64,000 bases of DNA from Escherichia coli (GTDB lineage: Bacteria > Pseudomonadota > Gammaproteobacteria > Enterobacterales > Enterobacteriaceae). The stretch is taken from the NCBI RefSeq assembly GCF_024298765.1, contig NZ_CP101210.1. The stretch is one strand, 5' to 3'. The notes beneath the pieces are model-generated. The model ran no database searches and was not told where the DNA came from. It saw only the letters and a list, made by a program, of their open reading frames with translations. Of this stretch, positions 3,056 through 22,752 are shown piece after piece (the stretch's first letter is position 1; the number at the start of each line of letters is the position of its first letter). The translations under genes were made by a program, and so were the position numbers.

Positions 3056-3065
3056 AGGAAACATC

Positions 3066-4295: not shown

Positions 4296-4320
4296 TTAGT
4301 CTTTTTACGTAATACAGCAC

Positions 4321-4363: not shown

Positions 4364-4373
4364 AGGAGGTTTT

Positions 4374-6142: not shown

Positions 6143-6150
6143 GAATCTTC

Positions 6151-6321: not shown

Positions 6322-7801
6322 CACCATTCCGTCGAATACGCTGGTTCCGATTTTTTATGCGGAAATGGATAACCAGGCGGCGAATACTGCACAGGACAGC
6401 GGAGCATCGCTGCTGATTGGTCATGCCAATAACGGTGCAGAGATTGTTGCCAACAGTCTGGTGCTGATGCCATCGGCAGACTATGCACGCCAGATTTGTG
6501 GTGCGGGAAGTCAGCTGGCGCGTATGGTCGAGGCTTATCGCCAGACCGACCCGTTTGGTGAACTGTATGTGATTGCCGTTCCTGAATCCACGGGCGCGGC
6601 GGCAACAGTTACGCTGACGGTGACCGGCGCGGCAACCGAAACCGGCACGGTGAATGTTTATGTGGGACGTACCCGCGTGCAGGCTCCGGTGACCAACGGC
6701 GATAACGTCACGACGATTGCCAGCAGTATCCAGGATGCCATCAATGCCGTTCCGGCCCTGCCGTTTACGGCTTCATCTTCGGCAGGCGTGGTCACACTGA
6801 CCGCGCGTCATAAGGGGCTTTGCGGGAATGAAATTCCTGTCAGCCTCAATTACTACGGCTTTGGTGGGGGCGAAGTGCTGCCAGCGGGCGTACAGATTGC
6901 CGTGGCGACGGGGACCGCCGGTACGGGTGCTCCGGTTCTCACCGGCGCGGTGGCTGCAATGGCGGATGAGCCGTTTGATTATATCGGCCTGCCGTTCAAC
7001 GACACGGCCTCCGTTAACACGCTGGTGACCGAGATGAACGATACCAGCGGTCGCTGGAGCTATGCGCGTCAGCTGTATGGTCATGTGTATACGGCAAAGA
7101 TCGGCACGCTGTCAGAACTGGTGACCGCAGGTGACCAGTTTAACCAGCAGCACATTACCCTGGCGGGATACGAAAAAGAGACCCAGACGCCTGCCGACGA
7201 GCTGGCGGCAAGCCGTACCGCCCGCGCAGCGGTGTTTATTCGCAACGATCCGGCACGTCCCACGCAGACCGGTGAGCTGGTGGGTATGCTGCCTGCGCCG
7301 AAGGGGAAACGGTTCACGATGACTGAACAACAGACCCTGCTGTCTCATGGCGTGGCAACGGCGTATGTCGAAAGTGGGGTGCTGCGCATTCAGCGTGATG
7401 TCACCACGTACAGGAAAAACGCTTACGGTGTTGCGGATAACAGCTACCTCGACAGCGAGACGCTGCATACCAGTGCGTATGTACTGCGCAAACTGAAATC
7501 CGTCATTACCAGTAAGTACGGGCGTCACAAGCTTGCCAGCGACGGTACCCGCTTTGGTCCCGGTCAGGCGATTGTCACCCCGGCGGTGATCAAAGGGGAA
7601 CTGCTGGCAACCTACCGTCAGCTTGAGCGTGCGGGGATCGTGGAAAACTACGAACTGTTCAAGCAGTACCTGGTTGTGGAGCGTGATGCCAGCGATCCGA
7701 ACCGCCTGAACACGCTGTTCCCGCCTGACTATGTTAACCAGTTGCGTGTCTTTGCCGTGGTTAACCAGTTCCGTCTTCAGTATTCAGAGGAGTCTGCATA
7801 A
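6305..7801 (+). CDS. Tail sheath protein (contractile tail, Mu-like)
   Basis: 498 aa; followed by tube, chaperone with frameshift, and tape measure in the canonical myovirus order. Confidence 0.85.
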   Translation: MTISFNTIPSNTLVPIFYAEMDNQAANTAQDSGASLLIGHANNGAEIVANSLVLMPSADYARQICGAGSQLARMVEAYRQTDPFGELYVIAVPESTGAAATVTLTVTGAATETGTVNVYVGRTRVQAPVTNGDNVTTIASSIQDAINAVPALPFTASSSAGVVTLTARHKGLCGNEIPVSLNYYGFGGGEVLPAGVQIAVATGTAGTGAPVLTGAVAAMADEPFDYIGLPFNDTASVNTLVTEMNDTSGRWSYARQLYGHVYTAKIGTLSELVTAGDQFNQQHITLAGYEKETQTPADELAASRTARAAVFIRNDPARPTQTGELVGMLPAPKGKRFTMTEQQTLLSHGVATAYVESGVLRIQRDVTTYRKNAYGVADNSYLDSETLHTSAYVLRKLKSVITSKYGRHKLASDGTRFGPGQAIVTPAVIKGELLATYRQLERAGIVENYELFKQYLVVERDASDPNRLNTLFPPDYVNQLRVFAVVNQFRLQYSEESA

Positions 7802-8157
7802 TGGCCCGTATCGGGGGAACCTGTTATTTCAAAATTGACGGTCAGCAGCTATCGCTGACCGGCGGCATTGAGGTGCCCATGAACAGGATGGTTAATGATG
7901 ACATCATCGGCCTGGACGGTTCAGTGGACCGCAAGGAAACTCACCGTGCGCCTTATGTCAAAGGGACCTTCAAGGTGCCGAAGAATTTTCCGGTGGGCAA
8001 AATCACCTCGTCTGATGAGATGACAATCACTGCCGAGCTGGCGAACGGTCAGGTCTATGTACTGTCGTCTGCTTGGCTGCACGGCGAAGCGAACCATAAT
8101 GCCGAAGAAGGCACGGTCGATCTTGAGTTCCACGGTGAAGAAGGGGATTACCAGTAA
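7801..8157 (+). CDS. Tail tube protein
   Basis: 118 aa directly after sheath, start overlapping sheath stop (TAATG). Confidence 0.8.
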   Translation: MARIGGTCYFKIDGQQLSLTGGIEVPMNRMVNDDIIGLDGSVDRKETHRAPYVKGTFKVPKNFPVGKITSSDEMTITAELANGQVYVLSSAWLHGEANHNAEEGTVDLEFHGEEGDYQ

Positions 8158-8426
8158 TGAAAGAGCTTGAGTTAAAGAAACCGATTACCGCTCATGGCGA
8201 GACACTCTCCGTACTGGAGTTTGATGAGCCCACCGGGAAAGATGTCCGCGAGCTGGGGTATCCCTACCAGATGAATCAGGATGAGTCCGTCAGACTTCTG
8301 GCGCATGTGGTATCGAAATATATTGTGCGGCTGGCGAAAGTGCCGCAAAGCTCTGTCGACCAGATGTCTCCGGCAGACCTGAATGCAGCGGCGTGGCTTG
8401 TGGCTGGTTTTTTCCTCCAGGCCTGA
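8157..8426 (+). CDS. Tail assembly chaperone (short form)
   Basis: 89 aa ORF immediately before tape measure; ends just after a T-TTT-TTC slippery heptamer. Confidence 0.7.
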   Translation: MKELELKKPITAHGETLSVLEFDEPTGKDVRELGYPYQMNQDESVRLLAHVVSKYIVRLAKVPQSSVDQMSPADLNAAAWLVAGFFLQA

Positions 8427-8575
8427 CGGCTGAATACCTTACTGATCGCTTCTTTGATTGCGCCAGCTACTGGCGCATTAATCCTTTCGAATTGCTGAAT
8501 ATGCCGATCAGTGAAATTCCCTTGCTGGTCAGTCAGGCAAACAGGATAGAGCAGGAGAAACGCACACATGGCTGA
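8393..8575 (+). CDS. -1 frame extension of tail assembly chaperone (programmed frameshift product, long form 8157..8575)
   Basis: ORF in the -1 frame overlaps the chaperone 3' end; slippery heptamer T_TTT_TTC at 8408..8414; extension ends overlapping the tape measure start. Confidence 0.5.
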   Translation: MACGWFFPPGLTAEYLTDRFFDCASYWRINPFELLNMPISEIPLLVSQANRIEQEKRTHG

Positions 8576-10403
8576 ATTTGAGCTTAAGGCGTTGATCACC
8601 GGTGTCGACAGGCTTTCTCCCGCGCTGTCGAAAATGCAAAAGAAAATACGGGGATTTAAACGCCAGGCGGAAGAAGCGTCACAGGGTGGGCTGGCGCTTT
8701 GTGGCGGACTGGCAGCGGGTCTGACGCTTTCCCTGAAATCTTATGCCGATCAGGAAAACGCCGCCACCGGGCTGAAAGTCGCCATGATGGATGCGAATGG
8801 CGAGGTTGGAAAGCGCTTTCAGGACATCAATAAACTGGCTATTGGCCTGGGTAACCAGCTTCCCGGTACAACGGCTGATTTCCAGAACATGATGCAGATG
8901 CTGGTGCGTCAGGGGATCCCGGCAGAAAACATTCTTGGCGGTGTGGGTAAAGCGACAGCTTATCTTGCGGTACAACTGAAAAAAACACCGGAAGCGGCTG
9001 CTGAGTTTGCTGCAAAGATGCAGGATGCTACCGGAACGGCGTCAGAAGACATGATGGGGCTGTTCGACACTATCCAGAAGGCGTTTTATCTGGGCGTTGA
9101 CGATACCAACATGTTGTCCTTCTTCACTAAAACCAGTTCTGTTCTGAAGATGGTGAACAAGGACGGTCTTCAGGCTGCACAGAGCCTTGCCCCCATCAGC
9201 GTCATGATGGATCAGATGGGGATGAACGGGGAGTCGGCAGGTAATGCCCTGCGAAAAGTTATCCAGTCCGGATTAAGCGTTAAGAAAATCAGGGACGTCA
9301 ATAAAATCATGGCCCGCCAGAAACTCGGGGTACAGCTCGATTTTACTGACGGCAAAGGAAGTTTTGGCGGTCTTGATAACATGTTCAGGCAACTGGCAAA
9401 GCTGCGAAAACTGACCGACGTTAAGCGAACAGGTGTACTTAAGGCAATATTTGGTGATGATGCCGAAACCCTTCAGGTGGTCAATGCACTAATCGATAAA
9501 GGAAAGGATGGCTACGATCAGATCCAGCAGAAGATGAATAAACAGGCCAGCCTGAATAAACGTGTTCAGGCCCAGCTTGGTACGCTGTCCAACCTGTGGG
9601 AGGCAATGACGGGGACCGCAACTAACGGCCTTGCGGCTATTGGCGGCGCATTTTCTGGTGACGCCAAAAATATCACGCAATGGCTGGGGGAGTTGGGGGA
9701 AAAATTCACGAAGTTTGCGGATGAAAATCCCCGGGTTATTCGCGGCGTCGTCGGGCTTGCTGCCGGTCTTGCGATTCTGAAACTGGGATTGATGGGCGTT
9801 GGCAGTGCCATCAGTATTGTCAGCAGGCTCATGTCGATGACGCCGATTGGCATGATTGCGACGGCGATAGCCCTGGCTGCGGGATTAATTATCACTAACT
9901 GGGATGTTGTCGGACCTTATTTTAAGAAACTCTGGGAAACCATTGGTCCTTATTTTGAGACTGGCTGGGAACTCCTTAAGAAAGTTTTTGCCTGGTCGCC
10001 GCTGGGGATGGTGATCAATAACTGGGGGCCGGTTGTTAAGTGGTTTCAGGATATGTGGGACAAGCTGAAGCCAATTATTGAGTGGTTTACCGACAGTTCC
10101 GGTGACACGGTCGATGCCATTAACTCGGCGCAGTGGGGGGCGGGTGCTTATGATGCTTATGGGACGGGAATACCGGCACGGGGATACACACCTTATCCGG
10201 CGGTAGATCCGGCTCAGTCAAACAACGCCTCCGATGCCACAGGCCCGAATCCCTTCATGATTAACAAAGCTTCTGCGCCAAAAGTTGATGGTGAGATCAA
10301 GGTCTCTTTTGTGAATTCGCCTCCGGGTATGCGGGTTATGGAAACGCGATCCAGCGGTTTTGATGTCAGCCATGATGTTGGCTATACGCGCTTTGGCAGG
10401 TAA
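8568..10403 (+). CDS. Tail tape measure protein
   Basis: 611 aa, helix-rich with hydrophobic segment near C-terminus; follows chaperone pair. Confidence 0.85.
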   Translation: MAEFELKALITGVDRLSPALSKMQKKIRGFKRQAEEASQGGLALCGGLAAGLTLSLKSYADQENAATGLKVAMMDANGEVGKRFQDINKLAIGLGNQLPGTTADFQNMMQMLVRQGIPAENILGGVGKATAYLAVQLKKTPEAAAEFAAKMQDATGTASEDMMGLFDTIQKAFYLGVDDTNMLSFFTKTSSVLKMVNKDGLQAAQSLAPISVMMDQMGMNGESAGNALRKVIQSGLSVKKIRDVNKIMARQKLGVQLDFTDGKGSFGGLDNMFRQLAKLRKLTDVKRTGVLKAIFGDDAETLQVVNALIDKGKDGYDQIQQKMNKQASLNKRVQAQLGTLSNLWEAMTGTATNGLAAIGGAFSGDAKNITQWLGELGEKFTKFADENPRVIRGVVGLAAGLAILKLGLMGVGSAISIVSRLMSMTPIGMIATAIALAAGLIITNWDVVGPYFKKLWETIGPYFETGWELLKKVFAWSPLGMVINNWGPVVKWFQDMWDKLKPIIEWFTDSSGDTVDAINSAQWGAGAYDAYGTGIPARGYTPYPAVDPAQSNNASDATGPNPFMINKASAPKVDGEIKVSFVNSPPGMRVMETRSSGFDVSHDVGYTRFGR

Positions 10404-10427
10404 TGAAAAATTAATCTGTTAATGAGT

Positions 10428-10448
10428 CCCACTCCGGTGGGATTTTTT
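10428..10448 (+). terminator. Short hairpin plus T-run between tape measure and baseplate genes (putative attenuating terminator)
   Basis: CCCAC-TCCG-GTGGG followed by ATTTTTTAT. Confidence 0.3.
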
Positions 10449-10463
10449 ATGTACGGAGTTTAT

Positions 10464-11792
10464 ATGACGTGGAAAGACAGACTTCAGGACGCGTCATTTC
10501 GCGGTGTGCCGTTTAAGGTTGAAGAAGAAAGTGCGGGAACCGGTCGTCGTGTGGAAACGCACGAATACCCGAACCGCGACAAACCCTATACCGAAGACCT
10601 GGGGAAAATCACTTTCCGCCCGTCCATCACAGCTTATGTGGTGGGAGATGACTGCTTTGACCAGCGCGATCGCCTGATTGACGCGCTGAATAAACCCGGT
10701 CCCGGCACGCTTGTCCATCCGACTTACGGTGAGCTGAAAGTCTGTGTTGACGGGGAAGTTCGGGTCAGCACATCGAAGAGTGAAGGGCGTATTGTCCGCT
10801 TTGACCTGAAGTTTGTCGAAGCGGGAGAACTCTCTTACCCCACTTCAGGTGCGGCGACGGCGCAGACGCTGATGTCATCCTGTTCTGCACTGGATGACTG
10901 CATCAGTGACAGCTTCAGTGGTTTCAGTATCGATGGCGTGGCAGATTTTGTGCAGAACGACGTCGTCGGTAATGCCGGCACAATGCTGGGGTATGTTTCT
11001 GATGCGATGAAAGTGGTGGATTCTGCCGTATCGGATGCCGCCAGGCTGTTGCAGGGGGATATCTCGGTACTTCTGCCGCCGCCATCGTCAGGCAAAAATT
11101 TCGTTGAGCAGGTGCAGAAAATGTGGCGTACCGGGAAACGCCTTTATGGTAACGCCAGCGACCTGGTCACCATGATCAAAACGCTTTCCGGTGTCAGCCT
11201 CGGCAGCGATCTGCAACCGCGCGGTGTCTGGAAAACGGACAGTAAAACCACCGCCACGGCGACGCAGCAGCGTAACGTGGTTGCCAGCATCCTTCGTACG
11301 ACCGCAATCAGCGAAGCGGCGTATGCCGTCACCCGATTGCCTGCGCCAACAACTTCCGCGGTGATGCAGAATGCCGCAGTGGGGCAGGCAACAACACCCG
11401 CGCAGAGCACTGGCTGGCCTTCCGTCACGCATCCGGCACTGAACAATGCACCGGCGGTGAAAAACACGGTTGACCTGCCGACGTGGGAAGAACTGACTGA
11501 CATTCGCGACACACTGAATACGGCAATTGATAAGGAGTTGTCCCGTACAACCAGTGATGCGCTGTTTCTGGCGCTGCGCCGGGTGAAAGCAGATCTGAAT
11601 GCGGATATCAACACGCGCCTTGAACAGTCTGCACGGATCATTCAGCGCACGCCGGATGAGGTTTTACCCGCGCTGGTGCTGGCGGCGACCTGGTTTGATA
11701 ACGCGGCGCGTGACGCGGACATTATCCGGCGTAATGCCATTACACATCCCGGCTTTGTGCCGGTGATCCCTCTGAAGGTGCCAGTGCAATGA
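10464..11792 (+). CDS. DNA circulation protein (Mu gp43-like)
   Basis: N-terminus MTWKDRLQDASFRGVPFKVEEE resembles the Mu gp43 family; ATG at 10464 chosen over ORF-track start 10422. Confidence 0.7.
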   Translation: MTWKDRLQDASFRGVPFKVEEESAGTGRRVETHEYPNRDKPYTEDLGKITFRPSITAYVVGDDCFDQRDRLIDALNKPGPGTLVHPTYGELKVCVDGEVRVSTSKSEGRIVRFDLKFVEAGELSYPTSGAATAQTLMSSCSALDDCISDSFSGFSIDGVADFVQNDVVGNAGTMLGYVSDAMKVVDSAVSDAARLLQGDISVLLPPPSSGKNFVEQVQKMWRTGKRLYGNASDLVTMIKTLSGVSLGSDLQPRGVWKTDSKTTATATQQRNVVASILRTTAISEAAYAVTRLPAPTTSAVMQNAAVGQATTPAQSTGWPSVTHPALNNAPAVKNTVDLPTWEELTDIRDTLNTAIDKELSRTTSDALFLALRRVKADLNADINTRLEQSARIIQRTPDEVLPALVLAATWFDNAARDADIIRRNAITHPGFVPVIPLKVPVQ

Positions 11793-12868
11793 ACGACAAT
11801 GTCACGCTACGGGTAAATGGCCGGGAGTGGAATGGCTGGACATCGGTGCGCATCGGTGCCGGTATTGAACGGCTGGCGCGGGATTTCAGTGTGGAGATCA
11901 CTCGCCAGTGGCCGGGAGATGAGGGTATCACCACGCTTCAGCCGCGCATTAAAAACGGTTCAAAAGTGGAAGTGCTGATTGGTGATGAGCTGGTGATCAC
12001 CGGCTGGGTGGAGGCGACTCCCGTTCGTTACGATGCCCGTTCGGTCAGCACCGGTATTGCCGGACGTAGTCTGACGGCTGACCTGATTGACTGTGCAGCC
12101 GAACCGACACAGTTTAACGGACGCTCGCTGGTGCAGATTGCGCAGGCGCTTGCTGCGCCTTTCGGCATTGAGGTGGTGAACAGCGGTGCGCCGTCGGGTG
12201 TTATTCCTGATGTTCAGCCTGATCACGGTGAAACGGTGATTGAGGTGATCAACAAAATACTCGGTCAGCAGCAGGCGCTGGCTTACGACGACCCGCACGG
12301 CAGGCTGGTGATTGGCGGTATTGGCTCAACGCGGGCACATACCGCGCTGGTACTTGGGGAAAACATCCTTTCCTGTGATACGGAGAAGAGTATCCGGGAG
12401 CGGTTTTCTGTTTACCAGGTGGCGGGGCAGCGTGCCGGAAACGACGATGATTTCGGTGAGGCCACCACCACCGCGCTGCGGGCACGCACAGAGGACGCAT
12501 TTATTGCCCGTTACCGTCCGATGTATATCAGGCAGACAGGGCAGGCCACGGGGGCAGGTTGTATTGCGCGTGCTGACTTTGAAGCCCGACAACGGGCGGC
12601 GCGGACGGATGAAACCACCTATGTGGTGCAGGGCTGGCGACAGGGTAACGGTACGCTGTGGCAGCCCAACCAGCGGGTGATTGTCTTCGATCCGGTCTGT
12701 GGTTTCGACAATACCGAACTGCTTGTCTCGGAAGTCACGTTTACTCAGGACCAGAACGGCACCCTGACGGAAATCCGTGTCGGCCCACCTGATGCTTATC
12801 TGCCTGAACCCGAAGCCCCCGGCGCGCGGAAAAAGAAAAAAGCCAGAGTACAGGAGGACCCGTTCTGA
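11789..12868 (+). CDS. Baseplate hub protein (Mu gp44 / P-like)
   Basis: 359 aa; order after DNA circulation protein as in Mu-type tails. Confidence 0.7.
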   Translation: MNDNVTLRVNGREWNGWTSVRIGAGIERLARDFSVEITRQWPGDEGITTLQPRIKNGSKVEVLIGDELVITGWVEATPVRYDARSVSTGIAGRSLTADLIDCAAEPTQFNGRSLVQIAQALAAPFGIEVVNSGAPSGVIPDVQPDHGETVIEVINKILGQQQALAYDDPHGRLVIGGIGSTRAHTALVLGENILSCDTEKSIRERFSVYQVAGQRAGNDDDFGEATTTALRARTEDAFIARYRPMYIRQTGQATGAGCIARADFEARQRAARTDETTYVVQGWRQGNGTLWQPNQRVIVFDPVCGFDNTELLVSEVTFTQDQNGTLTEIRVGPPDAYLPEPEAPGARKKKKARVQEDPF

Positions 12869-13416
12869 TGAGGACGATTGAAGCCATGCAGCGACAACTC
12901 CTCGGCCTGATTGGGCGGGCCGTGGTGAAAAGCATCAGTGCCGCCACGAAATGTCAGACCGTGGATGTGTCCCTGATTGCCGGTGAACCCAAAGCCGGGG
13001 TTGAACATCTTGAACCCTACGGTTTTACCGCAAGGGCAAACAGCGGTGCGGAAGCGGTGGTGTTGTTTCCGGATGGCGACCGTTCTCATGCGGTGGTTGT
13101 TACGGTGTCGGACCGGCGCTACCGCCTGAAAGGGCTGCAGACGGGTGAGGTGGCTGTCTATGACGATCAGGGGCAGTCCGTGACGCTGACCCGGGAGGGG
13201 ATCGTGGTGGACGGTGCAGGTAAAACGATCACGTTTCGCAATTCACCTAAAGCACGTTTTGAAATGGACCTGGAAGTGACAGGACAGGTGAAAGACCTGT
13301 GCGACTCCAGCGGCACTACCATGTCAGCGATGCGGCTTGCCTATAACGGGCATCGTCACAGAGAGAACGGTCAGGGCAGTAACACCGACAAACCGGATAA
13401 AGCGATGGAGGCATGA
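12868..13416 (+). CDS. Baseplate spike/assembly protein (gpV / Mu gp45-like)
   Basis: 182 aa; position and coupling within baseplate cluster. Confidence 0.65.
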   Translation: MRTIEAMQRQLLGLIGRAVVKSISAATKCQTVDVSLIAGEPKAGVEHLEPYGFTARANSGAEAVVLFPDGDRSHAVVVTVSDRRYRLKGLQTGEVAVYDDQGQSVTLTREGIVVDGAGKTITFRNSPKARFEMDLEVTGQVKDLCDSSGTTMSAMRLAYNGHRHRENGQGSNTDKPDKAMEA

Positions 13417-13841
13417 TGGAACTGTGGCTGACGGTGAACGGTAAACGCACCTGCGCCAGCGCACCGCTGGATCCGCTGACCCGCGCCGTGGTGATTTCCC
13501 TGTTTACCTGGCGGCGGGCGGAGCCTGATGACAACGCCGACGTCCCGATGGGATGGTGGGGGGATACCTGGCCTGCGGTACAGAATGACCGTTACGGCTC
13601 CCGACTGTGGCTGCTTCAGCGCAGCAAACTGACCAATCAGCTGGTGCAGACAGTAAGGGGGTATATCCGCGAATGCCTGCAATGGATGATTGATGACGGC
13701 GTGGTGTCCCGTATTGATCTGGATATCCGCCGCACCGGGATTAATGAGCTGGGTAACAGTATCACCCTCTGGCGTCGTGACGGACCGGTAATGATTTCTT
13801 TTGATGATCTGTGGAGTGCGATAACGCATGGCGGACAGTGA
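13413..13841 (+). CDS. Baseplate wedge protein (Mu gp46 / gpW-like)
   Basis: 142 aa; position within baseplate cluster. Confidence 0.6.
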   Translation: MMELWLTVNGKRTCASAPLDPLTRAVVISLFTWRRAEPDDNADVPMGWWGDTWPAVQNDRYGSRLWLLQRSKLTNQLVQTVRGYIRECLQWMIDDGVVSRIDLDIRRTGINELGNSITLWRRDGPVMISFDDLWSAITHGGQ

Positions 13842-14886
13842 ATTTCAGCGCCCGACGCTGGCAGAAAATATCAGTATGCTCCGTAACGATTTATTCGCCA
13901 GGCTGGACGTCAGCGACACGCTCCGGCGCATGGATGAAGACGTGCGGGCAAAGGTGTATGCGGCGGCGCTGCATACGGTTTACGGTTACATCGATTATCT
14001 GGCAATGAACATGCTGCCTGATCTGTGCGATGAGTCCTGGCTGGCGCGACATGCTGCGATGAAACGGTGTCCGCGCAAGGGGGCCACGGCTGCCAGCGGG
14101 TATATGCGCTGGGAAGGTGTCAGCGATGGCCTGAAGGTGACCGCCGGGAGTGTTATTCAGCGCGATGACCTGGTTCAGTACACGGCAACTGCCGATGCAA
14201 CCAGCACTGGTGGTGTCCTGCGTGTGCCGATCACTTGCTCAACTACAGGCGCGGTCGGTAACGCTGACGACGGTACGGCATTAATCCTGGTCACACCGGT
14301 GAATGGTCTGCCGTCTTCCGGTGTGGCTGACACCCTGACAGGCGGATTTGATACTGAAGAGCTGGAAACGTGGCGCGCCCGCGTCATTGAGCGGTATTAC
14401 TGGACGCCTCAGGGCGGGGCTGACGGGGACTATGTCGTCTGGGCTAAAGAAGTGCCCGGCATTACCCGCGCATGGACATACCGACACTGGATGGGAACGG
14501 GGACTGTCGGTGTGATGATTGCCAGCAGTGACCTGATTAATCCCATTCCGGAAGAGTCAACGGAAACGGCGGCAAGACAACATATCGAGCCACTGGCCCC
14601 GGTGGCAGGCTCTGATTTGTATGTATTCAGGCCGGTGGCGCATAAAGTGGATTTTCATATCCGCGTGACGCCGGACACACCGGAAATACGGGCTGCCATC
14701 ACCGCCGAGTTGCGTTCGTTCCTGCTGCGTGATGGTTATCCGCAGGGAGAACTGAAGGTGTCACGTATCAGTGAAGCGATTTCCGGTGCGAACGGGGAAT
14801 ACAGCCATCAGTTGCTTGCACCGGCAGACAATATCGCCATTGCAAAAAATGAACTGGCGGTACTGGGGACGATTTCATGGACGTGA
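13828..14886 (+). CDS. Baseplate J-like protein (Mu gp47-like)
   Basis: 352 aa; position within baseplate cluster. Confidence 0.75.
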
Positions 14887-15461
14887 CAAACGATGATTAC
14901 ATCCGTCTGTTGTCGGCACTGTTGCCCCCCGGTCCGGCGTGGTCAGCCAGCGATCCGGCGATTGCCGGTGCGGCACCGTCATTAACCCGCGTTCATCAGC
15001 GTGCGGATGCCCTGATGCGGGAGCTGGATCCGCGCACTACCACTGAACTGATAAACCGCTGGGAGCGTCTGTGCGGTCTGCCGGATGAATGTATTCCCGC
15101 AGGGACACAGACCCTTCGCCAGCGTCAGCAACGGCTGGATGCGAAGGTTAACCTGTCGGGTGGCATCAACGAGGATTTTTATCTTGCACAGCTTGCTGCC
15201 CTGGGCAGACCAGATGCCACCATCACGCGATACGACAAAAGCACGTTCACCTGCTCATCGGCCTGTACTGACGCTGTGAACGCGCCTGAATGGCGGTATT
15301 ACTGGCAGGTCAACATGCCAGCCGCCACCAACACCACCTGGATGACATGTGGCGATCCCTGTGATTCCGCACTGCGTATCTGGGGCGACACCGTTGTCGA
15401 GTGTGTGCTTAACAAACTCTGCCCGTCGCATACCTACGTAATTTTTAAATATCCGGAGTAA
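14877..15461 (+). CDS. Tail protein, Mu gp48 / YmfQ-like
   Basis: 194 aa, same size and position as e14 YmfQ immediately upstream of the tail-fibre genes. Confidence 0.65.
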
Positions 15462-15464
15462 TCC

Positions 15465-16115
15465 ATGCATCGTATAGACACGAAAACCGCGCAGAAGGAT
15501 AAGTTCGGCGCGGGTAAGAACGGTTTTACCCGTGGTAACCCCCAGACCGGCACGCCTGCCACCGATCTGGATGATGACTACTTTGACATGTTGCAGGAGG
15601 AGCTTTGCAGCGTTGTGGAGGCGTCCGGTGCCAGCCTGGAGAAGGGGCGGCACGACCAGCTGCTTACCGCGCTTCGTGCGCTGCTGTTAAGCCGCAAGAA
15701 TCCGTTTGGTGATATCAAATCGGATGGCACGGTGAAAACGGCTCTCGAAAACCTTGGTTTGGGAGAAGCGGCGAAAAGGGATGTGGGCACAGGAGAAAAT
15801 CAGATACCGGATATGTCAGCCTGGAAAAGAAATCCGAGTTCTAATCGCTGGAGAAAATTGCCTGATGGAACCATCATTCAAATGGGAATATCAGCATCAG
15901 GGCCATTAGGCTCACCTGTAAATATCACCCTGCCGATATCTTTCAGCAATACCAATTATTGTGTTGTTGCATCGTACGATAATGCACGGTCAGGTGTGTC
16001 AACAATGGTTAGTTTTGCAGCGTTACCTGTTTCACCATCGCAATTTTCCCTGATGTCATCTGTGACTGAGCAAGGAATAAATCCTTTTGCTTACTGGATT
16101 GCTTTTGGAGATTAA
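15465..16115 (+). CDS. Side tail fibre protein (constant N-terminus fused to currently expressed variable C-terminus)
   Basis: 216 aa; invertase crossover site lies inside the gene at 15742..15767 (codons for LENLGLGE); sequence after the site is noticeably more AT-rich. Confidence 0.75.
15742..15767. repeat. Invertase crossover site (left), gix/pix-like 26-bp site
   Basis: CTCTCGAAAACCTTGGTTTGGGAGAA; its 14-bp arm TTGGTTTGGGAGAA is the exact inverted copy of 17607..17620. Confidence 0.6.
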
Positions 16116-16118
16116 TAA

Positions 16119-16538
16119 ATGGATAGATACTTCTATTCACAAAAAGAAAATGGTTTTTTTACCGATTTAAATAAAGCACCTTCAGATGCTGTTGAGATAA
16201 CCACGGATGAATGGCTGTTACTACTGGATGGTCAGGATAATGGCATGAAAATAGTCAGCAATCAGGAGGGATATCCGGTTTTGACAGAGCAACCACCTTT
16301 ATCAAAAGAAAACCTTATTGCATTGGCGGATTTGAAAAAAAGAAAACTTATTAATGAAGCCAACGAGCACATGAACAGCAGACAATGGCCAGGTAAAGCG
16401 GCGATTGGTCGCCTGAAAGGTGAGGAACTGGCGCAATATAATTTGTGGCTGGATTATCTGGACGCACTGGAACTGGTCGATACTTCCGGTGCGCCAGATA
16501 TTGAATGGCCTACGCCTCCGGCAGTTCAGGCCAGATGA
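16119..16538 (+). CDS. Tail fibre assembly protein (expressed orientation)
   Basis: 139 aa directly after the fibre gene; AT-rich like the expressed fibre C-terminus. Confidence 0.75.
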   Translation: MDRYFYSQKENGFFTDLNKAPSDAVEITTDEWLLLLDGQDNGMKIVSNQEGYPVLTEQPPLSKENLIALADLKKRKLINEANEHMNSRQWPGKAAIGRLKGEELAQYNLWLDYLDALELVDTSGAPDIEWPTPPAVQAR

Positions 16539-17115
16539 CGTCCGGCGCGGTGCTGGTATCTGTTGCCGTCACCGCGTCAATGTAATCCAGCACAGCGTTA
16601 AGTCGGGTGTTTTCTGTCTGCATCAGCTTCCGCCCGGCCTGCAATTTCAGTTGAATCAGACTAATGGAAGCCATTGCAGTATCAATCAGTGACTGACGCT
16701 GTGCTTCTGCCGCGTCTACTGCGGCGCTATGCTGTGCCTCAGTATCGGTCACCCATTTCTCACCATCCCATTTATCGTATGGCGTTAATGGGGCGATAGT
16801 GGTTGTATTTTCAGGGTAATCACCCGGAACTGTGATTTCTTTGGTATCTCCCGTTTCGGTACTATAGACAACTTCACCGCGATGGTCTGGCACATATTCC
16901 CATGAATTTAAATCTACAGAGCGACAGATTGCATAACCAGCTTTATGTGTACCTGGTGCATCCAAACAGGAACATGCCGGGATACCGACGCCGACAGCGA
17001 GATATTCAGTTGATGTAGAAATATATTCCCGCGTTTCACCATCATAATTATAAACGGTAATATCTCCCGCTTTTATGGCAATGAGTTCGCTATTTAATAC
17101 AGCTTTATTCATCAT
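16510..17115 (-). CDS. Tail fibre assembly protein (alternative, expressed after inversion)
   Basis: 201 aa on opposite strand, converging on and overlapping the 3' end of the other assembly gene. Confidence 0.75.
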   Translation of the reverse strand: MMNKAVLNSELIAIKAGDITVYNYDGETREYISTSTEYLAVGVGIPACSCLDAPGTHKAGYAICRSVDLNSWEYVPDHRGEVVYSTETGDTKEITVPGDYPENTTTIAPLTPYDKWDGEKWVTDTEAQHSAAVDAAEAQRQSLIDTAMASISLIQLKLQAGRKLMQTENTRLNAVLDYIDAVTATDTSTAPDVIWPELPEA

Positions 17116-17632
17116 GCGGCCCTCACAATATAATTAAAAGCGATGTTACGAGGACGAGTTTCTGTACCTACATTTTCACTAATTTCACCATAACGTTTAA
17201 CACTACGAGAGCTAATAGCTCGTAGTGAGGAAGGCACCTTAAGACCGGGTTCGTCCGTTTTAACTATTCCCCCGTCACCGTATGTAGCCAGTATTCCTGG
17301 GTTTACTCCTTCCCGTGCACTTCCTGCGGCGAGTCCGTCCCCTGTCCATAATTCCATATAGTGTGCATGGTCCAAAATTGTGTGTGGCTGCCAATTAAGC
17401 AAAGCGCGACCAGTATCAATCCCGCGACCGTCATCCCAGCCACGAATAAATTCACCGCGTAAATCAGGCAATTTATTGGTCGGGTAAGCCTTTGCCAGTT
17501 CCGGGTATTCTTCAGCAGAAAAAGCCGCACCGTTGCATTTCAGCCAGCCTGTTGGCGGAGTGGCGGAAGGCCACGGAACAGGCACACCAACGGGTAATGC
17601 CGAACCTTCTCCCAAACCAACGTTTATGAAAA
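17112..17632 (-). CDS. Alternative tail-fibre variable C-terminal segment (silent in this orientation)
   Basis: Minus-strand ORF 17112..17660 reads through the right crossover site; contains the conserved fibre motif PWPSATPPTGWLKCNGAAF...YPELAKAYP; would fuse to the constant N-terminus on inversion. Confidence 0.65.
17607..17632. repeat. Invertase crossover site (right), gix/pix-like 26-bp site
   Basis: TTCTCCCAAACCAACGTTTATGAAAA, about 55 bp upstream of the invertase start. Confidence 0.6.
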
Positions 17633-17686
17633 TGCAGAAATAACGAGCAAATGGCATCATTCCTGCTTTTGTCAGGGAGATCTACC

Positions 17687-18241
17687 ATGCTTATTGGCTA
17701 TGTACGTGTGTCAACAAATGACCAGAACACAGATCTACAGCGTAATGCGCTGAACTGTGCAGGATGCGAGCTGATTTTTGAAGACAAGATAAGCGGTACA
17801 AAGTCTGAAAGGCCGGGACTGAAAAAACTGCTCAGGACATTATCGGAAGGTGACACTCTGGTTGTCTGGAAGCTGGATCGGCTGGGGCGTAGTATGCGGC
17901 ATCTGGTCATTCTGGTTGAGGAGTTGCGCGAACGTGGCGTTAATTTTCGCAGCCTGACGGATGCTATTGATACCAGCACACCGATGGGGCGTTTTTTCTT
18001 TCATGTGATGGGTGCCCTAGCTGAAATGGAACGAGAACTGATTGTTGAACGAACAAAAGCTGGACTGGAAGCTGCTCGCGCACAGGGACGAATTGGTGGA
18101 CGTCGTCCCAAACTTACACCAGAACAATGGGCGCAGGCTGGGCGATTAATTGCATCAGGCGTTCCTCGCCAGAAGGTGGCGATCATCTATGATGTTGGTA
18201 TATCGACACTGTATAAGAAGTTTTCGGTCGGAGATAAATGA
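17687..18241 (+). CDS. pin: Serine DNA invertase, Pin/Gin/Cin family
   Basis: MLIGYVRVSTNDQ active-site serine motif at N-terminus, C-terminal HTH; very close to e14 PinE as recalled; ATG at 17687 inside ORF-track 17651..18241. Confidence 0.9.
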   Translation: MLIGYVRVSTNDQNTDLQRNALNCAGCELIFEDKISGTKSERPGLKKLLRTLSEGDTLVVWKLDRLGRSMRHLVILVEELRERGVNFRSLTDAIDTSTPMGRFFFHVMGALAEMERELIVERTKAGLEAARAQGRIGGRRPKLTPEQWAQAGRLIASGVPRQKVAIIYDVGISTLYKKFSVGDK

Positions 18242-18298: not shown

Positions 18299-19117
<819 letters not shown>

Positions 19118-19478
19118 TCATTGCAAGGGCTCACAACCAGTAGTGTTGAGAAAACCATCGGAGAAATGAGGCTAAGCCTTTGAATTTACATAGTACAAAA
19201 AAGATACTTTTCCTCATAATGTGAGCTAATTTTATGTTTCGTTTGATGATTGGACCGGTCTCGAAAACCGTAGACACATAGTATGCGTTAATTTATGAAC
19301 AAACTACTTGTCTGCTGTTTTTCTGTCATTAGTCGTATATAGAATGATTCTCTATGCCTAACAAAGCATCACCAGTGCTAGATTACGTTGTAGTCACTGT
19401 TTAAATATCCAGATAAAACATTTCCTTCTGGGTTGAATGAGTGATAAAGTTTCACCCATTAGACCCCTTGGAGGAATT

Positions 19479-20912
19479 ATGTCTGAATTTGAAGTGTTGG
19501 CACAGCATCTGCTGAAGGAAGCCGAGGCGGAAGAAAAGCTGCGACAGGAAAATGATAAAAAGCTTATCGAGAAAGTGCTGGAAATCTATGATCAGAAGTA
19601 TGTGGCTGAATTACTGAGAAAAGTCGGAAAAAATGAGTGGAGCCGTGAAACCATTAACCGCTGGATTAATGGCAAGTGTTTACCAAAATCGTTGACTTCA
19701 GTAGAAGAGTCTCTTCTGCGTAAGATGCTACCAGAACCACCTGCAAACCATCCGGAATATGCTTTCCGCTTCATTGACTTATTTGCTGGAATTGGAGGGA
19801 TACGGAAAGGTTTTGAGGCCATTGGAGGCCAGTGTGTTTTTACCAGTGAATGGAATAAAGATGCTGTGCGTACATACAAGGCCAACTGGTTTAACGATGA
19901 ACAGGTGCATAAATTCAATCTCGATATTCGGGAAGTCACGCTGAGTGATAAAACCGATGTATTGGAAACGGATGCTTATGCATATATTGATGAGCATGTG
20001 CCGGATCATGATGTGCTTCTTGCGGGGTTCCCGTGCCAGCCATTTAGCCTTGCTGGTGTTAGTAAGAAAAACTCACTTGGTCGTGCGCATGGTTTTGAAT
20101 GTGAAGCACAAGGAACACTTTTTTTTGACGTGGCACGTATTATACGAGCAAAAAAACCGGCAATTTTTGTGCTGGAAAATGTCAAAAATCTGAAGAGCCA
20201 TGATAAGGGTAAAACTTTCAAAGTCATTATGGAGACCCTTGACGAGCTGGGCTACGAAGTTGCCGATGCTGCAGAAATGGGAAAAAACGATCCAAAGATT
20301 ATCGATGGGAAGCATTTTTTGCCTCAGCATCGTGAACGCATTGTTCTGGTCGGATTTAGACGAGATCTGAATATTCACAAGGGGTTTACCTTGCGTGATA
20401 TCAGTCGTTTTTATCCGGAACACCGCCCATCATTTGGTGAATTGCTGGAGCCTGTAGTCGACAGTAAATATATACTTACGCCAAAACTATGGGAGTACCT
20501 TTATAACTACGCCAAAAAGCATGCAGCCAAGGGGAATGGTTTTGGCTTTGGGTTGGTCAATCCTGAGAATAAGGAAAGCATTGCACGCACACTTTCTGCC
20601 AGATATCACAAAGACGGATCAGAAATTCTTATTGATCGTGGTTGGGATATGGCAACGGGAGAGGCTGACTTTATGAATGAGAGTAATCAGGCTCGTCGAC
20701 CACGCAGGCTGACTCCCCGAGAGTGCGCACGCCTTATGGGATTTGAAAAACCTGGAGGGAAACCATTCCGTATTCCGGTTTCAGATACTCAGTCATATCG
20801 GCAGTTCGGTAACTCAGTTGTGGTGCCAGTATTTGAAGCTGTTGCCAGACTTCTGGAACCCTATATCCTCAAAGCTGTTTCTGCTGATGCTGGTAAGACT
20901 GGGCAGCCTTGA
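19479..20912 (+). CDS. ecoRIIM: DNA cytosine-5 methyltransferase, M.EcoRII/Dcm type (predicted CCWGG)
   Basis: C5-MTase motifs [10 protein letters not shown] (I), [11 protein letters not shown] (IV), ENVKNL (VI), [10 protein letters not shown] (X); N-terminus [12 protein letters not shown] resembles M.EcoRII; 477 aa from ATG at 19479 with GGAGG RBS. Confidence 0.9.
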
Positions 20913-20918
20913 GAACAT

Positions 20919-20941
20919 CTCCCGGCCTTTTAAGCCGGGAG
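20919..20941. terminator. Bidirectional hairpin between convergent methyltransferase and endonuclease genes
   Basis: CTCCCGGC-CTTTTAA-GCCGGGAG, 8-bp stem, located in the 34-bp gap between the two stop codons. Confidence 0.5.
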
Positions 20942-20946
20942 TCAGC

Positions 20947-22161
20947 CTATGATAGTTCAGCGTAAAGCTCTATCAGCTCAGTAATGAATGCTCCGAGCGT
21001 TATTAATTCTTCTCTAACTGCTTCTGGGTATTTTTTATGTAAAGTTGATGGTACAACGAGTCTGACACCCGCATCTTTCATTTCTCGGTATTGTGCTGAA
21101 GAAACACCTTCTTGCAGTGTAAATAAATGTACCTGATGGATTTTATCTGCTTCATTCAGTATCTGACGCCAGCGATCTTTGCAGGTGGTCTTTACTGCCA
21201 GCATACGTAAGTTTTCTACAGGAAATTCAACGTTATGATATGCCTCTGCTGAAGGAAACAGGAAATCTGGTTTTTTATTACCTTCAGTAACTGCCTGAGT
21301 GGAGAAATGCCGTAGTCCGTGCTCGATAAAAAGCTTCTCTAGGTGAAGTTCAAGTGATTTGCCTGCCCTTGATTTACGTCGATTACTGACAGAGTTGGCT
21401 AATGCAATAAACTCATCTACAGAATCGAATCCTTTCTTAATAATATCAAGAACATGTAATTCCTCGACGAGTAGAAAAATATCATACTCGACACGCCGAC
21501 GGTCAATCAGTTGCTCATCTGGATCCTTGGAGTTTTTAGCATAATGGCCAGCAGCATATTGAATAATTTCGTTTCCAGAAGGAAAACGCTTCTTCCAGTC
21601 TTCAGGAATAACATATTTATGATTTACTGGAGTTTGCTGAAGAGACAATCCGCCCAAAATTTGTCCGGCAGGGCCGGAAATTAGGGTTCCAGGTATGATT
21701 TCGCCAATAGCAGACTCGATGATATCCTCTTCATCGGGATTGACGCAGACCCATATATCTACCTCGGAACAGTCAGTGTTCTGTTCGTTTAACCTGAAAG
21801 CAAGAATTGTGAGGGCTCCTGTATTTTCAGGGTTCTGTAATGGACTTCCTCTCCCCCAGCGCGTAATTCTTTTTTCGTTTCGGGTCTTACCAAAATAACG
21901 GTTGTTGTAATAAATTGCGCGTGCTTGGGTATCAGGGCAATCATGGGATGATACATGCGCAGTAAGGAAGACTGAAGGGTTCAGTTCGCGAGTATGATTG
22001 ATAGATGGAAAAAGCTTTTCAACGATATTTGAGGGGATATAAAGTCCGACCTGATGGCCACCTGTTGCGCCTGTGTCGTTTGCAGAAAGGCGTTTGATGT
22101 AGATAAAGTAATTCCCGCTTGCGATATCAAGCAGCCAGTTATGAAAAACCGACATATACAT
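20947..22161 (-). CDS. ecoRIIR: Type IIE restriction endonuclease, EcoRII-like
   Basis: 404 aa, same length as EcoRII; N-terminus MSVFHNWLLDIASGNYFIYIKRLSANDTGATGGHQVGLYIP closely matches EcoRII as recalled; convergent with the methyltransferase. Confidence 0.9.
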   Translation of the reverse strand: MYMSVFHNWLLDIASGNYFIYIKRLSANDTGATGGHQVGLYIPSNIVEKLFPSINHTRELNPSVFLTAHVSSHDCPDTQARAIYYNNRYFGKTRNEKRITRWGRGSPLQNPENTGALTILAFRLNEQNTDCSEVDIWVCVNPDEEDIIESAIGEIIPGTLISGPAGQILGGLSLQQTPVNHKYVIPEDWKKRFPSGNEIIQYAAGHYAKNSKDPDEQLIDRRRVEYDIFLLVEELHVLDIIKKGFDSVDEFIALANSVSNRRKSRAGKSLELHLEKLFIEHGLRHFSTQAVTEGNKKPDFLFPSAEAYHNVEFPVENLRMLAVKTTCKDRWRQILNEADKIHQVHLFTLQEGVSSAQYREMKDAGVRLVVPSTLHKKYPEAVREELITLGAFITELIELYAELS

Positions 22162-22237
22162 CCCTTTGTTAACATACAGTCAGGGTTAACATTTTTCCAT
22201 AGTTATAGATAAGCGGCTAGGAACTTAAGGGAAAAAC

Positions 22238-22263
22238 AAAAAGCCCGCATAAGCGGGCTTTTG
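22238..22263. terminator. Intrinsic terminator hairpin between ssrA and the endonuclease gene
   Basis: AAAAAGCCCGC-ATAA-GCGGGCTTTTTG with A/T runs on both sides. Confidence 0.5.
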
Positions 22264-22389
22264 TGTCACTCGAGAGCCGCGGCTCCTTTGCGTATCCTTT
22301 TTTATCTCCTCACCGTCTGGTCGGTGTCCTGCTGAGACTGCTAACTTCCTGTTTTTGTTGGTGTTGTCCTTACACCGTCCAATCATGAT

Positions 22390-22752
22390 TGGTGGAGCTG
22401 GCGGGAGTTGAACCCGCGTCCGAAATTCCTACATCCTCGGTACTACATGCTTAGTCAGTCTTTACATTCGCTTGCCAGCTGCGGACGGACACGCCACTAA
22501 CAAACTAGCCTGATTAAGTTTTAACGCTTCAACCCCAGGCAGGGCTTCCACGCGATCTCTTTTGGGTTTGACCTCTCTTGATCCCCGTCCTAAGAGCGGA
22601 GGCTAGGGAGAGAGGGCTCTAAGCAGGTTATTAAGCTGCTAAAGCGTAGTTTTCGTCGTTTGCGACTATTTTTTGCGGCTTTTTACGAGGCCAACCGCCC
22701 CTCGGCATGCACCTTGGGTTTCGCAAATCCCGTCGAATCCAGAATCAGCCCC
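22390..22752 (-). ncRNA. ssrA: tmRNA (SsrA), 363 nt
   Basis: Reverse complement matches E. coli tmRNA from GGGGCUGAUUCUGGAUUCGACGGG to CCAGCUCCACCA; tag reading frame encodes ANDENYALAA. Confidence 0.95.

What the first reader, a model, noticed from the sequence alone, without database searches (positions are those of the whole stretch)
22162..22389. Junction between the R-M cargo and ssrA; same site occupied by CP4-57 in K-12
The tmRNA 3' end (22390) abuts the element, with an intrinsic terminator hairpin (22238..22263) and a palindrome CCAATCATGATTGG (22376..22389) in the junction. The K-12 placement of the CP4-57 prophage at ssrA is recalled knowledge. The integrase and second att copy must lie upstream of position 1, so the cargo block sits at the far end from the integrase. 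The region upstream of the endonuclease start also holds a GTTAAC...GTTAAC direct repeat (22170..22195) that could be an operator.
Basis: partly seen in the sequence, partly recalled or inferred. Interest (0 to 1): 0.4.

Follow-up and report, generated by a model that had tools for sequence, protein, structure and literature searches.

The report
Prophage attachment junction at ssrA
This 228-base stretch is the ordinary joint between the E. coli tmRNA gene and a resident SfV-like prophage, but about 160 bases of it are the phage's own copy of the folded tail and stop signal that normally follow the tmRNA gene.

Summary
All the sequence features are real, with small coordinate errors. tmRNA ends at 22390 on the minus strand. 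The hairpin at 22239..22262 is a terminator on the ssrA strand. The palindrome lies at 22379..22392 and is no rarer than chance. The GTTAACAT repeat lies at 22168 and 22185.

The region is the integrase-distal attachment junction of an SfV-like temperate phage inserted in the 3' end of ssrA. In the closest genomes (M37H, UTAK-14) a displaced 30-31-nt copy of the ssrA end lies about 41 kb away. It sits next to a lambda-type integrase unrelated to CP4-57 IntA.

Window 22228..22389 is the phage P' arm. The same arm plus R-gene leader occurs in attP configuration in circular phage records, viral contigs and free phage LLS. It is homologous to the native ssrA 3' flank of 1,387 E. coli genomes with an empty site, and to the flank at the far end of CP4-57 in K-12.

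Across 71 variants it keeps four hairpins with compensatory changes. The phage therefore restores the gene end, its structured trailer and its terminator, which shields the co-directional EcoRII-type endonuclease gene from ssrA read-through.

The operator idea for GTTAAC is unsupported. The junction is a known kind; the conserved trailer is a modest new lead.

The parts
22390..22752 (-). ssrA (tmRNA), complete, tag peptide ANDENYALAA
   Evidence: ARAGORN. Rfam RF00023 scores 295.8 bits over the full model. It is 363/363 identical to K-12 ssrA.
22389..22419 (-). att identity block: the last 30 nt of ssrA plus 1 nt. The crossover must lie inside it. The ssrA bases 3' of the crossover point are phage-supplied.
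   Evidence: An exact 31-nt second copy lies at M37H L003 7329..7359. A 30-nt copy lies at UTAK-14 L255 9639..9668. The sequences on both sides of those copies differ from those flanking ssrA.
22379..22392 (.). Perfect palindrome CCAATCATGATTGG spanning the tmRNA CCA end
   Evidence: It is not enriched over chance. It is conserved in E. coli-type arms but absent from Citrobacter-phage-type arms. Its centre lies outside the identity block, so it is not the crossover point.
22228..22389 (-). Phage P' arm, a copy of the native ssrA 3' trailer. It runs from the base after CCA to the end of the terminator T-tract.
   Evidence: It is 90% identical to the K-12 flank beyond psaA and 91% to the attP region of phage LLS. 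The same arm occurs in attP configuration, identical or nearly so, in viral contigs such as L016 and L021 and in the circular record CT01. An arm-like sequence is present in 4,162 of 5,426 E. coli genomes.
22360..22376 (-). Trailer hairpin HP1 (GGUGU-AAGGACA-ACACC)
   Evidence: Four of its 6 pairs change on both sides across 71 arms. Examples are GC:39/AU:27 at one pair and AU:35/UA:18/CG:12 at another.
22304..22338 (-). Trailer hairpin HP2: outer stem GUCUC/GAGAU and inner stem CACCG-ACCAGA-CGGUG
   Evidence: It appears in the fold. The outer stem pair at columns 55/83 reads UA:35, UG:31, CG:3. The inner stem was the search motif, so its invariance carries no information.
22286..22296 (-). 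GATACGCAAAG, a candidate arm-type integrase site, or else a conserved single-stranded linker
   Evidence: The same 11-mer occurs as a direct repeat in the M37H P arm at -61. I saw similar TACGC..AAG motifs in the UTAK-14 and LLS P arms. The integrase has an Arm-DNA-bind_2 domain. This assignment is inference only.
22273..22286 (-). Trailer hairpin HP3 (GGAGC-CGCG-GCUCU)
   Evidence: Pair 108/113 reads CG:69, UA:2. Pair 104/117 reads GC:54, GU:15, AU:1.
22239..22262 (-). Intrinsic terminator hairpin HP4 of the ssrA transcript, with its T-tract at 22228..22238
   Evidence: Terminator scan, fold and covariation. Native-type arms carry a different but equally complementary stem, GCCCACAGAUGUGGGC.
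22162..22226 (-). 5' leader and unlocated promoter of the EcoRII-type endonuclease gene, part of the R-M cassette. It holds the GTTAACAT repeat at 22168..22175 and 22185..22192.
   Evidence: Homology to plasmid EcoRII cassettes runs over window 19396..22223. Only TTCCTAGC..CTNTGGAAAAATG and the AGGGA Shine-Dalgarno motif are conserved there. The GTTAAC motifs are not.
20947..22161 (-). EcoRII-type restriction endonuclease gene. RefSeq relatives start at the ATG at 22155.
   Evidence: PDB 1na6 EcoRII, E = 3e-243 over residues 1-403. Pfam EcoRII-N and EcoRII-C.
19479..20912 (+). C5 cytosine methyltransferase, convergent with R, with an N-terminal DNA_meth_N domain
   Evidence: Pfam PF00145 and PF18284. 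PADLOC MTase_II. Start codon and Shine-Dalgarno sequence read from the sequence.

Best explanation
Window 22162..22389 is the integrase-distal attachment junction (the B-O-P' type) of an SfV-like temperate phage integrated by a tyrosine integrase into the 3' end of ssrA.

Crossover. It occurred within the last 30 nt of ssrA (22390..22419). The ssrA bases 3' of the crossover point, and everything at lower coordinates, are therefore phage DNA.

The P' arm. The first ~160 nt after CCA (22228..22389) are the phage's P' arm. This arm is a close homologue of the native E. coli ssrA 3' trailer. It has four hairpins, and the last is the intrinsic terminator at 22239..22262 on the ssrA strand. Integration therefore rebuilds the whole ssrA transcription unit: gene end, structured trailer and terminator.

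The cargo. Immediately after the terminator comes the phage's att-proximal cargo. Window 22162..22226 is the leader of an EcoRII-type endonuclease gene that reads in the same direction as ssrA.

Shown versus inferred. Shown: the anatomy, the homologies, the attP configuration and the displaced copy in relatives. Inferred: the terminator stops strong ssrA transcription from reading into the endonuclease gene; the trailer hairpins act at the RNA level; GATACGCAAAG may bind the integrase arm domain.
For: - The tmRNA gene is complete and ends at 22390.
- Window 1..15815 is 97.8% identical to the phage SfV structural genes. The closest lysogens show a whole prophage running from ssrA to an integrase.
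- Displaced 31-nt and 30-nt ssrA 3' copies lie at the integrase end in M37H and UTAK-14. The far junction was also found in other genomes.
- That integrase has Arm-DNA-bind_2 and Phage_integrase domains. It is 87% identical to the integrase of free phage LLS, whose record annotates a tmRNA pseudogene and attP at the homologous place.
- The same arm plus R leader is joined to a P arm and integrase in the circular 43.7-kb phage record CT01 and in viral contigs.
- The terminator is predicted on the ssrA strand and covaries.
- 1,387 genomes have ssrA-arm-ypjA with nothing inserted, which defines the native trailer the phage copy resembles.
- On the 71-arm alignment the four-hairpin structure is 96% paired. 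Ten pairs change on both sides. None of 500 shuffles reach the observed values for four of the five measures, and the slid controls are far lower.
Against: - The window stops inside the prophage, so the integrase, the second att copy and the integrase type of this particular genome are not seen.
- Contigs with an identical arm carry a second, unrelated integrase type with a 23-nt identity block. The window's own integrase could therefore be either type.
- The arm is about 90% identical to the native flank, and identical over its first 49 nt. Sequence alone does not prove that this copy came in with the phage.
- No experiment or RNA data were available for termination, read-through toxicity or trailer function.
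- Covariation counts sequences, not events. G.U pairs outnumber A.C mismatches 70 to 26 cells on the ssrA strand, but mainly through two common variants.
Confidence: 0.85

Rival explanations
1. The 160 nt after ssrA are the native chromosomal flank, not phage DNA. On this view the R-M genes and prophage were inserted downstream of the native terminator by some route that does not target ssrA.
For: The arm is homologous to the flank of 1,387 empty-site genomes and to the K-12 flank beyond psaA. Its first 49 nt are identical to the K-12 type.
Against: From about arm position 50 onward, including the terminator stem, the window differs from the native type and matches the phage type. The same arm joined to the R leader occurs in attP configuration in a circular phage record and in viral contigs. 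Relatives carry a displaced ssrA 3' fragment at the integrase end, the signature of ssrA-targeted integration.
Confidence: 0.07
2. The element is a CP4-57-type island using the same att site and integrase family as in K-12.
For: Both occupy the ssrA 3' end.
Against: CP4-57 has IntA directly next to ssrA, a 14-15-nt repeat and a different trailer. Here the ssrA-proximal genes are R-M cargo. The integrase in relatives is under 25% identical to IntA and sits at the other end. In M37H and UTAK-14 a separate IntA-like island lies beyond the displaced copy as the older member of a tandem array.
Confidence: 0.02
3. The GTTAACAT direct repeat is an operator that controls the endonuclease gene, as C-boxes do in C-protein-regulated R-M systems.
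For: Two exact 8-mers lie 17 bp apart just upstream of the R start. The methyltransferase has an N-terminal DNA_meth_N domain. By my recollection, this domain is a promoter-binding module in related systems.
Against: No controller gene lies in the cassette. Orthologous EcoRII cassettes on plasmids conserve the neighbouring bases but not the GTTAAC motifs. Two prophage copies (CT01, IAI39) have GCTAAC in one repeat. No GTTAAC lies upstream of the methyltransferase gene.
Confidence: 0.07
4. The arm is conserved because it is a DNA platform for integrase arm domains, IHF and Xis, not because of any RNA structure.
For: It is a P' arm. The integrase has an arm-binding domain. GATACGCAAAG recurs in the P arm of M37H, and I saw similar motifs in the UTAK-14 and LLS P arms.
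Against: The same arm follows ssrA fragments of 6 to 67 nt that belong to many different P arms, and it accompanies unrelated integrases. It is also kept in genomes with no element at ssrA. The stems show compensatory changes, which protein sites do not explain.
Confidence: 0.2

Closest known systems
Genomic islands and prophages integrated in tRNA/tmRNA genes (the Islander-type model; the tmRNA gene as an integration hotspot)
   Same: A tyrosine integrase targets the 3' end of the gene. The element restores the gene, and a displaced 3' fragment marks the other end. The principle is quoted from the PMC4383910 abstract; the hotspot status is from PMC3603311. Tandem arrays also form, as seen here in M37H and UTAK-14.
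   Different: The restored part extends about 160 nt beyond the gene, as a homologue of the native trailer and terminator. I did not find this point in the papers I could read.
Escherichia phage LLS (PQ299149), a free temperate phage with an annotated tmRNA pseudogene and attP
   Same: Its integrase is 87% identical to that of M37H. Its arm is 91% identical over the ssrA end plus trailer. It has the same order: int, small cargo, attP, terminator, cargo, invertase, tail fibres.
   Different: LLS carries other cargo after the terminator and no EcoRII system. The window's own integrase is not visible.
CP4-57 cryptic prophage of K-12
   Same: It is integrated at the ssrA 3' end. Its excision biology is known to affect tmRNA (PMC10107115).
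   Different: It has a P4-type IntA adjacent to ssrA, a 14-15-nt repeat whose displaced copy lacks T357, and an unrelated trailer. The sequence homologous to the window's junction lies at its far end.
Phage SfV and prophage e14 (SfV-like lambdoid myoviruses)
   Same: The structural module is 97.8% identical to SfV. Relatives annotate e14-type gene names: ymfK/T/L, ymfQ, tfaE and pinE. From my own recollection, cargo also sits between the tail-fibre/invertase genes and att in both phages (gtr genes in SfV, mcrA in e14).
   Different: From recollection, the integration modules differ: SfV uses thrW and e14 uses icd. The cargo here is PD-T4-3 plus an EcoRII-type R-M system.
EcoRII restriction-modification system
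   Same: R aligns with EcoRII (PDB 1na6) over residues 1-403 at E = 3e-243. M is a C5 methyltransferase. The genes are convergent.
   Different: It is prophage-borne rather than plasmid-borne, about 80% identical in DNA to the plasmid cassettes. Its specificity was not tested.

Membership tests
tmRNA-gene-integrated prophage (tDNA island model) | Intact target gene regenerated at one end of the element | tested here: met
   Full-length tmRNA, 363/363 identical to K-12, abuts the element at 22390.
tmRNA-gene-integrated prophage (tDNA island model) | Displaced 3' fragment of the target gene as a direct repeat at the other end | tested here: inconclusive
   It is absent from the window, which ends inside the prophage. 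It is present in the nearest relatives: 31 nt in M37H and 30 nt in UTAK-14, about 41 kb away.
tmRNA-gene-integrated prophage (tDNA island model) | Tyrosine integrase encoded next to one att site | tested here: inconclusive
   It is outside the window. Relatives have an Arm-DNA-bind_2 plus Phage_integrase protein near the displaced copy.
tmRNA-gene-integrated prophage (tDNA island model) | attP (P arm, core and P' arm contiguous) exists in a free or circular form of the element | tested here: met
   Seen in the circular 43.7-kb record CT01, in viral contigs L016/L021/L034/L103, and in free phage LLS.
CP4-57 family island | P4-type IntA integrase directly adjacent to ssrA, with a 14-15-nt repeat | tested here: not met
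   The genes next to ssrA are R-M cargo. The relatives' integrase is under 25% identical to IntA, and the repeat is 30-31 nt.
Rho-independent terminator | G+C-rich hairpin followed by a U-tract on the transcribed strand | tested here: met
   A 10-bp stem with 6 G-C pairs, then UGUUUUU, on the ssrA strand. It is in the MFE and centroid folds and its stem shows compensatory changes. Termination itself was not measured.
C-protein-controlled R-M operator (C-box) | A controller (HTH) gene in the cassette, and conserved operator repeats upstream of it and of R | tested here: not met
   There is no controller ORF. The repeats are not conserved in orthologous cassettes and are absent upstream of M.
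EcoRII-type type II R-M system | EcoRII-N and EcoRII-C domains in R, plus a cognate C5 methyltransferase | tested here: met
   Pfam domains and PDB 1na6 at E = 3e-243. CCWGG specificity was not tested.
Described RNA family (Rfam) for the trailer | A match at or above a family's gathering score | tested here: not met
   In 22150..22420 only the tmRNA end matches convincingly (E 5e-16, just under gathering because the stretch cuts it short); the other matches are weak and overlap the terminator hairpin.

The most novel reading that the evidence does not exclude
The ~150-nt sequence after ssrA may be a functional, structured RNA: a conserved pre-tmRNA 3' trailer. It could serve as a processing or termination module, or be released as a 3'-derived small RNA. 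It is native to E. coli and its relatives. Many unrelated ssrA-integrating phages would then copy it faithfully in their attP, so that lysogeny leaves tmRNA biogenesis untouched. The shared 200-nt homology would also let phages and hosts swap integrase and cargo modules by homologous recombination.
Probability: 0.35. Interest if true: 0.55.

Novelty: new member of a known kind. Interest (0 to 1): 0.33.

Why it matters
The junction itself is textbook biology. A temperate phage sits in the tmRNA gene, with defence cargo (PD-T4-3 and an EcoRII-type R-M system) placed next to att.

Two points have practical value:
1. Boundary calls for ssrA islands in E. coli can be off by about 160 nt. The phage arm and the native flank are homologous, and in K-12 the 'native' flank sits at the far end of CP4-57.
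2. The ssrA gene appears to have a conserved, structured 3' trailer and terminator that many phages replace like for like. If that trailer has an RNA function, it is an unrecognised part of tmRNA biogenesis. It would also be an example of phages preserving host RNA processing signals, and here it keeps a restriction endonuclease gene from being driven by one of the strongest promoters in the cell.

Tried and rejected
- Second att copy in the window: a blastn-short search of the window with 22101..22520, which includes the last 131 nt of ssrA, gave only chance 11-12-mers.
- Small protein in the trailer: read directly, an ATG-started 60-codon frame exists in the window. It is stopped after 28 codons in K-12 and after 5 codons in LLS. 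Rejected.
- Palindrome as the crossover or a special site: it is not enriched over chance, and its centre lies outside the 31-nt identity block.
- GTTAAC as an operator: rejected on conservation grounds.
- Promoter for the R gene: the scan found nothing convincing upstream, and I could not place one by eye.
- Rfam at a permissive threshold: only weak matches overlapping the terminator hairpin.
I recognised only Lelliottia (L189) and L238 as real arms by script; the E. albertii locus (L144) later aligned as an arm with an internal gap.
- Strand of selection from G.U versus A.C counts: 70 versus 26 cells, but dominated by two variants, so only suggestive.
- Literature: Williams 2002 and 2003 are not held. 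Searches for a described ssrA trailer or a downstream sRNA found nothing relevant.

Full report
**1. What is in the sequence**

ARAGORN and Rfam both place a complete tmRNA gene at 22390..22752 on the minus strand. It is identical to K-12 ssrA at all 363 positions. smpB lies just upstream on the same strand, and the rest of the window is collinear with the K-12 pheA-rrnG region in reverse orientation.

The gene below the junction (20947..22161, minus strand) encodes an EcoRII homologue. It matches PDB 1na6 at E = 3e-243 and has the Pfam EcoRII-N and EcoRII-C domains. A convergent C5 methyltransferase gene lies at 19479..20912.

- The palindrome CCAATCATGATTGG is at 22379..22392 and includes the tmRNA CCA end.
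- The repeat is GTTAACAT at 22168..22175 and 22185..22192.
- The hairpin is called a terminator on the minus strand, stem 22262..22239 followed by a T-tract.

A perfect 14-nt palindrome is not unusual here: the window holds 3, against 3.8 expected in shuffles.

**2. The element is an SfV-like prophage, and its other end carries the displaced ssrA fragment**

Window 1..15815 is 97.8% identical to the structural genes of phage SfV. The best complete-genome match is strain M37H, at 99.4% over 23 kb and 100% over window 22101..22520, which spans the junction. It shows a full prophage running from ssrA through tail, head, lysis and early genes to an integrase.

An exact 31-nt copy of the ssrA 3' end (equal to window 22389..22419) lies in M37H about 40.6 kb from the ssrA end (ssrA end at record position 1863762, copy at 1904328-1904358). 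It comes after the integrase and three small cargo genes. UTAK-14 has the same layout with a 30-nt copy. The same far-end sequence occurs in seven genomes in full, and in D5 and elppa10 with a different outer flank.

Beyond the displaced copy, both M37H and UTAK-14 carry a second integrase. The M37H one is 48% identical to K-12 IntA and is preceded by a CP4-57-like trailer. This is a tandem array in which the phage is the newer arrival. The window itself contains no second copy.

**3. Relation to CP4-57**

In K-12, CP4-57 starts within the last 15 nt of ssrA, with intA immediately adjacent. It ends with the 14-nt psaA fragment, which lacks T357. The consequence of that deletion on excision is published (PMC10107115).

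The M37H-type integrase has Arm-DNA-bind_2 and Phage_integrase domains. It is 87% identical to the integrase of free phage LLS and under 25% identical to IntA. The two elements share the target gene end, but not the integrase family, the length of the identity block, or the orientation of the integrase relative to ssrA.

**4. Most of the 'junction' is a conserved module**

The about 150 nt that follow psaA at the far end of CP4-57 in K-12 are 90% identical to window 22389..22238. They include a terminator hairpin with a different but equally complementary stem.

An arm-like sequence occurs in 4,162 of 5,426 complete E. coli genomes. I built a composite of the K-12 ssrA end, the K-12 arm and the ypjA end. 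It is found intact in 1,387 genomes, and the 12 best are 100% identical. These genomes have an unoccupied site, so the arm is the native ssrA 3' flank and terminator.

The same arm is also carried by phages:
- Free phage LLS has a 39-nt tmRNA pseudogene followed by the arm, next to its integrase. The record annotates this as attP.
- Citrobacter phage phiNP and phage Ayreon carry more diverged copies.
- The circular 43.7-kb record CT01, filed as a plasmid, is a whole phage genome. In it the window-type R gene, leader and arm are contiguous with a P arm, a dinI-like gene and an integrase.
- More than 120 viral contigs contain the arm. In those that keep a CCACCA it nearly always begins right after it. 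It is preceded by 6 to 67 nt of exact ssrA identity, or by the whole gene. Several contigs (L016, L021, L034, L103) have an arm and R leader identical or nearly identical to the window over 189 nt, in attP configuration.

From about arm position 50 onward the window differs from the native K-12 type and matches the phage type. I therefore conclude that 22228..22389 is the phage P' arm. The rival reading, a native flank with the prophage inserted downstream, gets a low probability.

**5. Structure of the arm**

I aligned 71 distinct arms and tested a four-hairpin structure taken from the single-sequence fold.
- 96% of cells form standard pairs, and 10 pairs change on both sides.
- None of 500 column shuffles reach the observed values for four of the five measures.
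- Sliding the 3' partners drops pairing to about 40-49%.

HP1 (22360..22376) shows GC/AU and AU/UA/CG exchanges. The HP2 outer stem, HP3 and the terminator each have compensatory pairs.

G.U pairs outnumber A.C mismatches on the ssrA-sense strand, 70 to 26 cells. Two common variants dominate that count, so the strand assignment is only suggestive. No Rfam family matches. No reading frame is conserved, as read directly.

ssrA transcription must run through this stretch to reach the first terminator. I therefore read the arm as a structured pre-tmRNA trailer plus terminator. Its function beyond termination is unknown.

An 11-mer in a linker, GATACGCAAAG (22286..22296), recurs in the M37H P arm. 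I saw similar motifs in the UTAK-14 and LLS P arms. It may be an arm-type integrase site. Against that, the same arm accompanies unrelated integrases and also occurs at empty sites, so integrase binding is not the main reason the arm is conserved.

**6. The cargo side**

Homology to plasmid-borne EcoRII cassettes (about 80% identity) runs over window 19396..22223. The cassette therefore begins a few bases after the terminator T-tract.

Upstream of R, those cassettes conserve TTCCTAGC..CTNTGGAAAAATG and the AGGGA ribosome-binding motif, but not the GTTAAC motifs. Among prophage copies, 19 keep both repeats and 2 have GCTAAC in one. There is no controller gene and no GTTAAC upstream of the methyltransferase gene. 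The operator idea is unsupported, and I could not locate the R promoter.

R reads in the same direction as ssrA. The phage-borne terminator is thus the only visible barrier between a very strong promoter and an endonuclease gene. That it insulates R is my inference.

The neighbouring GIY-YIG gene (18299..19072) matches the PD-T4-3 defence protein at E = 5e-140. The att-proximal segment is therefore a small defence cluster. From recollection, it occupies the same map position as the gtr genes of SfV and mcrA of e14.

**7. Verdict**

The finding is a genuine but ordinary prophage-host junction at a known hotspot. The CP4-57 analogy is loose, and the operator suggestion fails.

The unexpected part is that the junction is largely a phage copy of a conserved, apparently structured ssrA trailer and terminator. 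That trailer is native to E. coli and is shared by many ssrA-integrating phages. This is a lead rather than a result.

Noticed in passing
window 18299..19072 (-): The GIY-YIG (LEM-3-like) gene next to the R-M system matches the single-gene anti-phage system PD-T4-3 at E = 4.7e-140. The att-proximal cargo is therefore a two-system defence cluster.
   Followed up: partly
L003 5299..7187 (M37H); L255 9790..11741 (UTAK-14); L005 3165..3980 (LLS): The slot between the integrase gene and the attP core holds different cargo in each relative. M37H has three unknown genes, one with a DUF4325 STAS-like domain. UTAK-14 has AbiLi/AbiLii. LLS has one unknown gene. It looks like a second variable defence hotspot reaching to within about 20-140 nt of the core.
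   Followed up: partly
L008 (NZ_CP081794.1), also NZ_CP081704.1 and NZ_CP104634.1: NZ_CP081794.1 (43.7 kb), a circular record filed as an E. coli plasmid, holds phage baseplate, tail-fibre and integrase genes around the R-M genes and arm. It looks like a whole SfV-like phage genome in attP configuration. Its ssrA-like core is degenerate (GGTCTCAACTCCGTCCCCCACCA). The other two records match the R-M region at 99.4-99.5% but were not inspected.
   Followed up: partly
L004 23173..23340 (K-12, beyond psaA): The sequence beyond the right end of CP4-57 in K-12 is the native ssrA trailer and terminator. It was displaced about 22 kb from ssrA, and the psaA copy lacks T357.
   Followed up: yes
L004 about 1157..1235 (K-12 CP4-57 attL trailer): The unrelated CP4-57-supplied trailer also has a hairpin whose loop contains ACCAGA, the same hexamer as the invariant HP2 loop of the native and phage trailer. 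This may be coincidence.
   Followed up: no
L002 7455..8866 (M37H prophage, outside the window): KwaA and KwaB (Kiwa defence) genes are annotated between the Q antiterminator and the lysis genes of the same prophage.
   Followed up: no
window 16510..18241: A Pin/Fin-type serine invertase gene (17651..18241) lies next to oppositely oriented ORFs (16510..17660). The matching genes in M37H are annotated as a tail-fibre assembly protein and a phage tail protein, so this is probably an invertible host-range segment.
   Followed up: no
L014 (strain MCJCHV-1): Here the arm follows a P4-like satellite and lies only about 530 nt from glaH. The whole ypjA-ileY region between ssrA and glaH is therefore dispensable and variable.
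   Followed up: no
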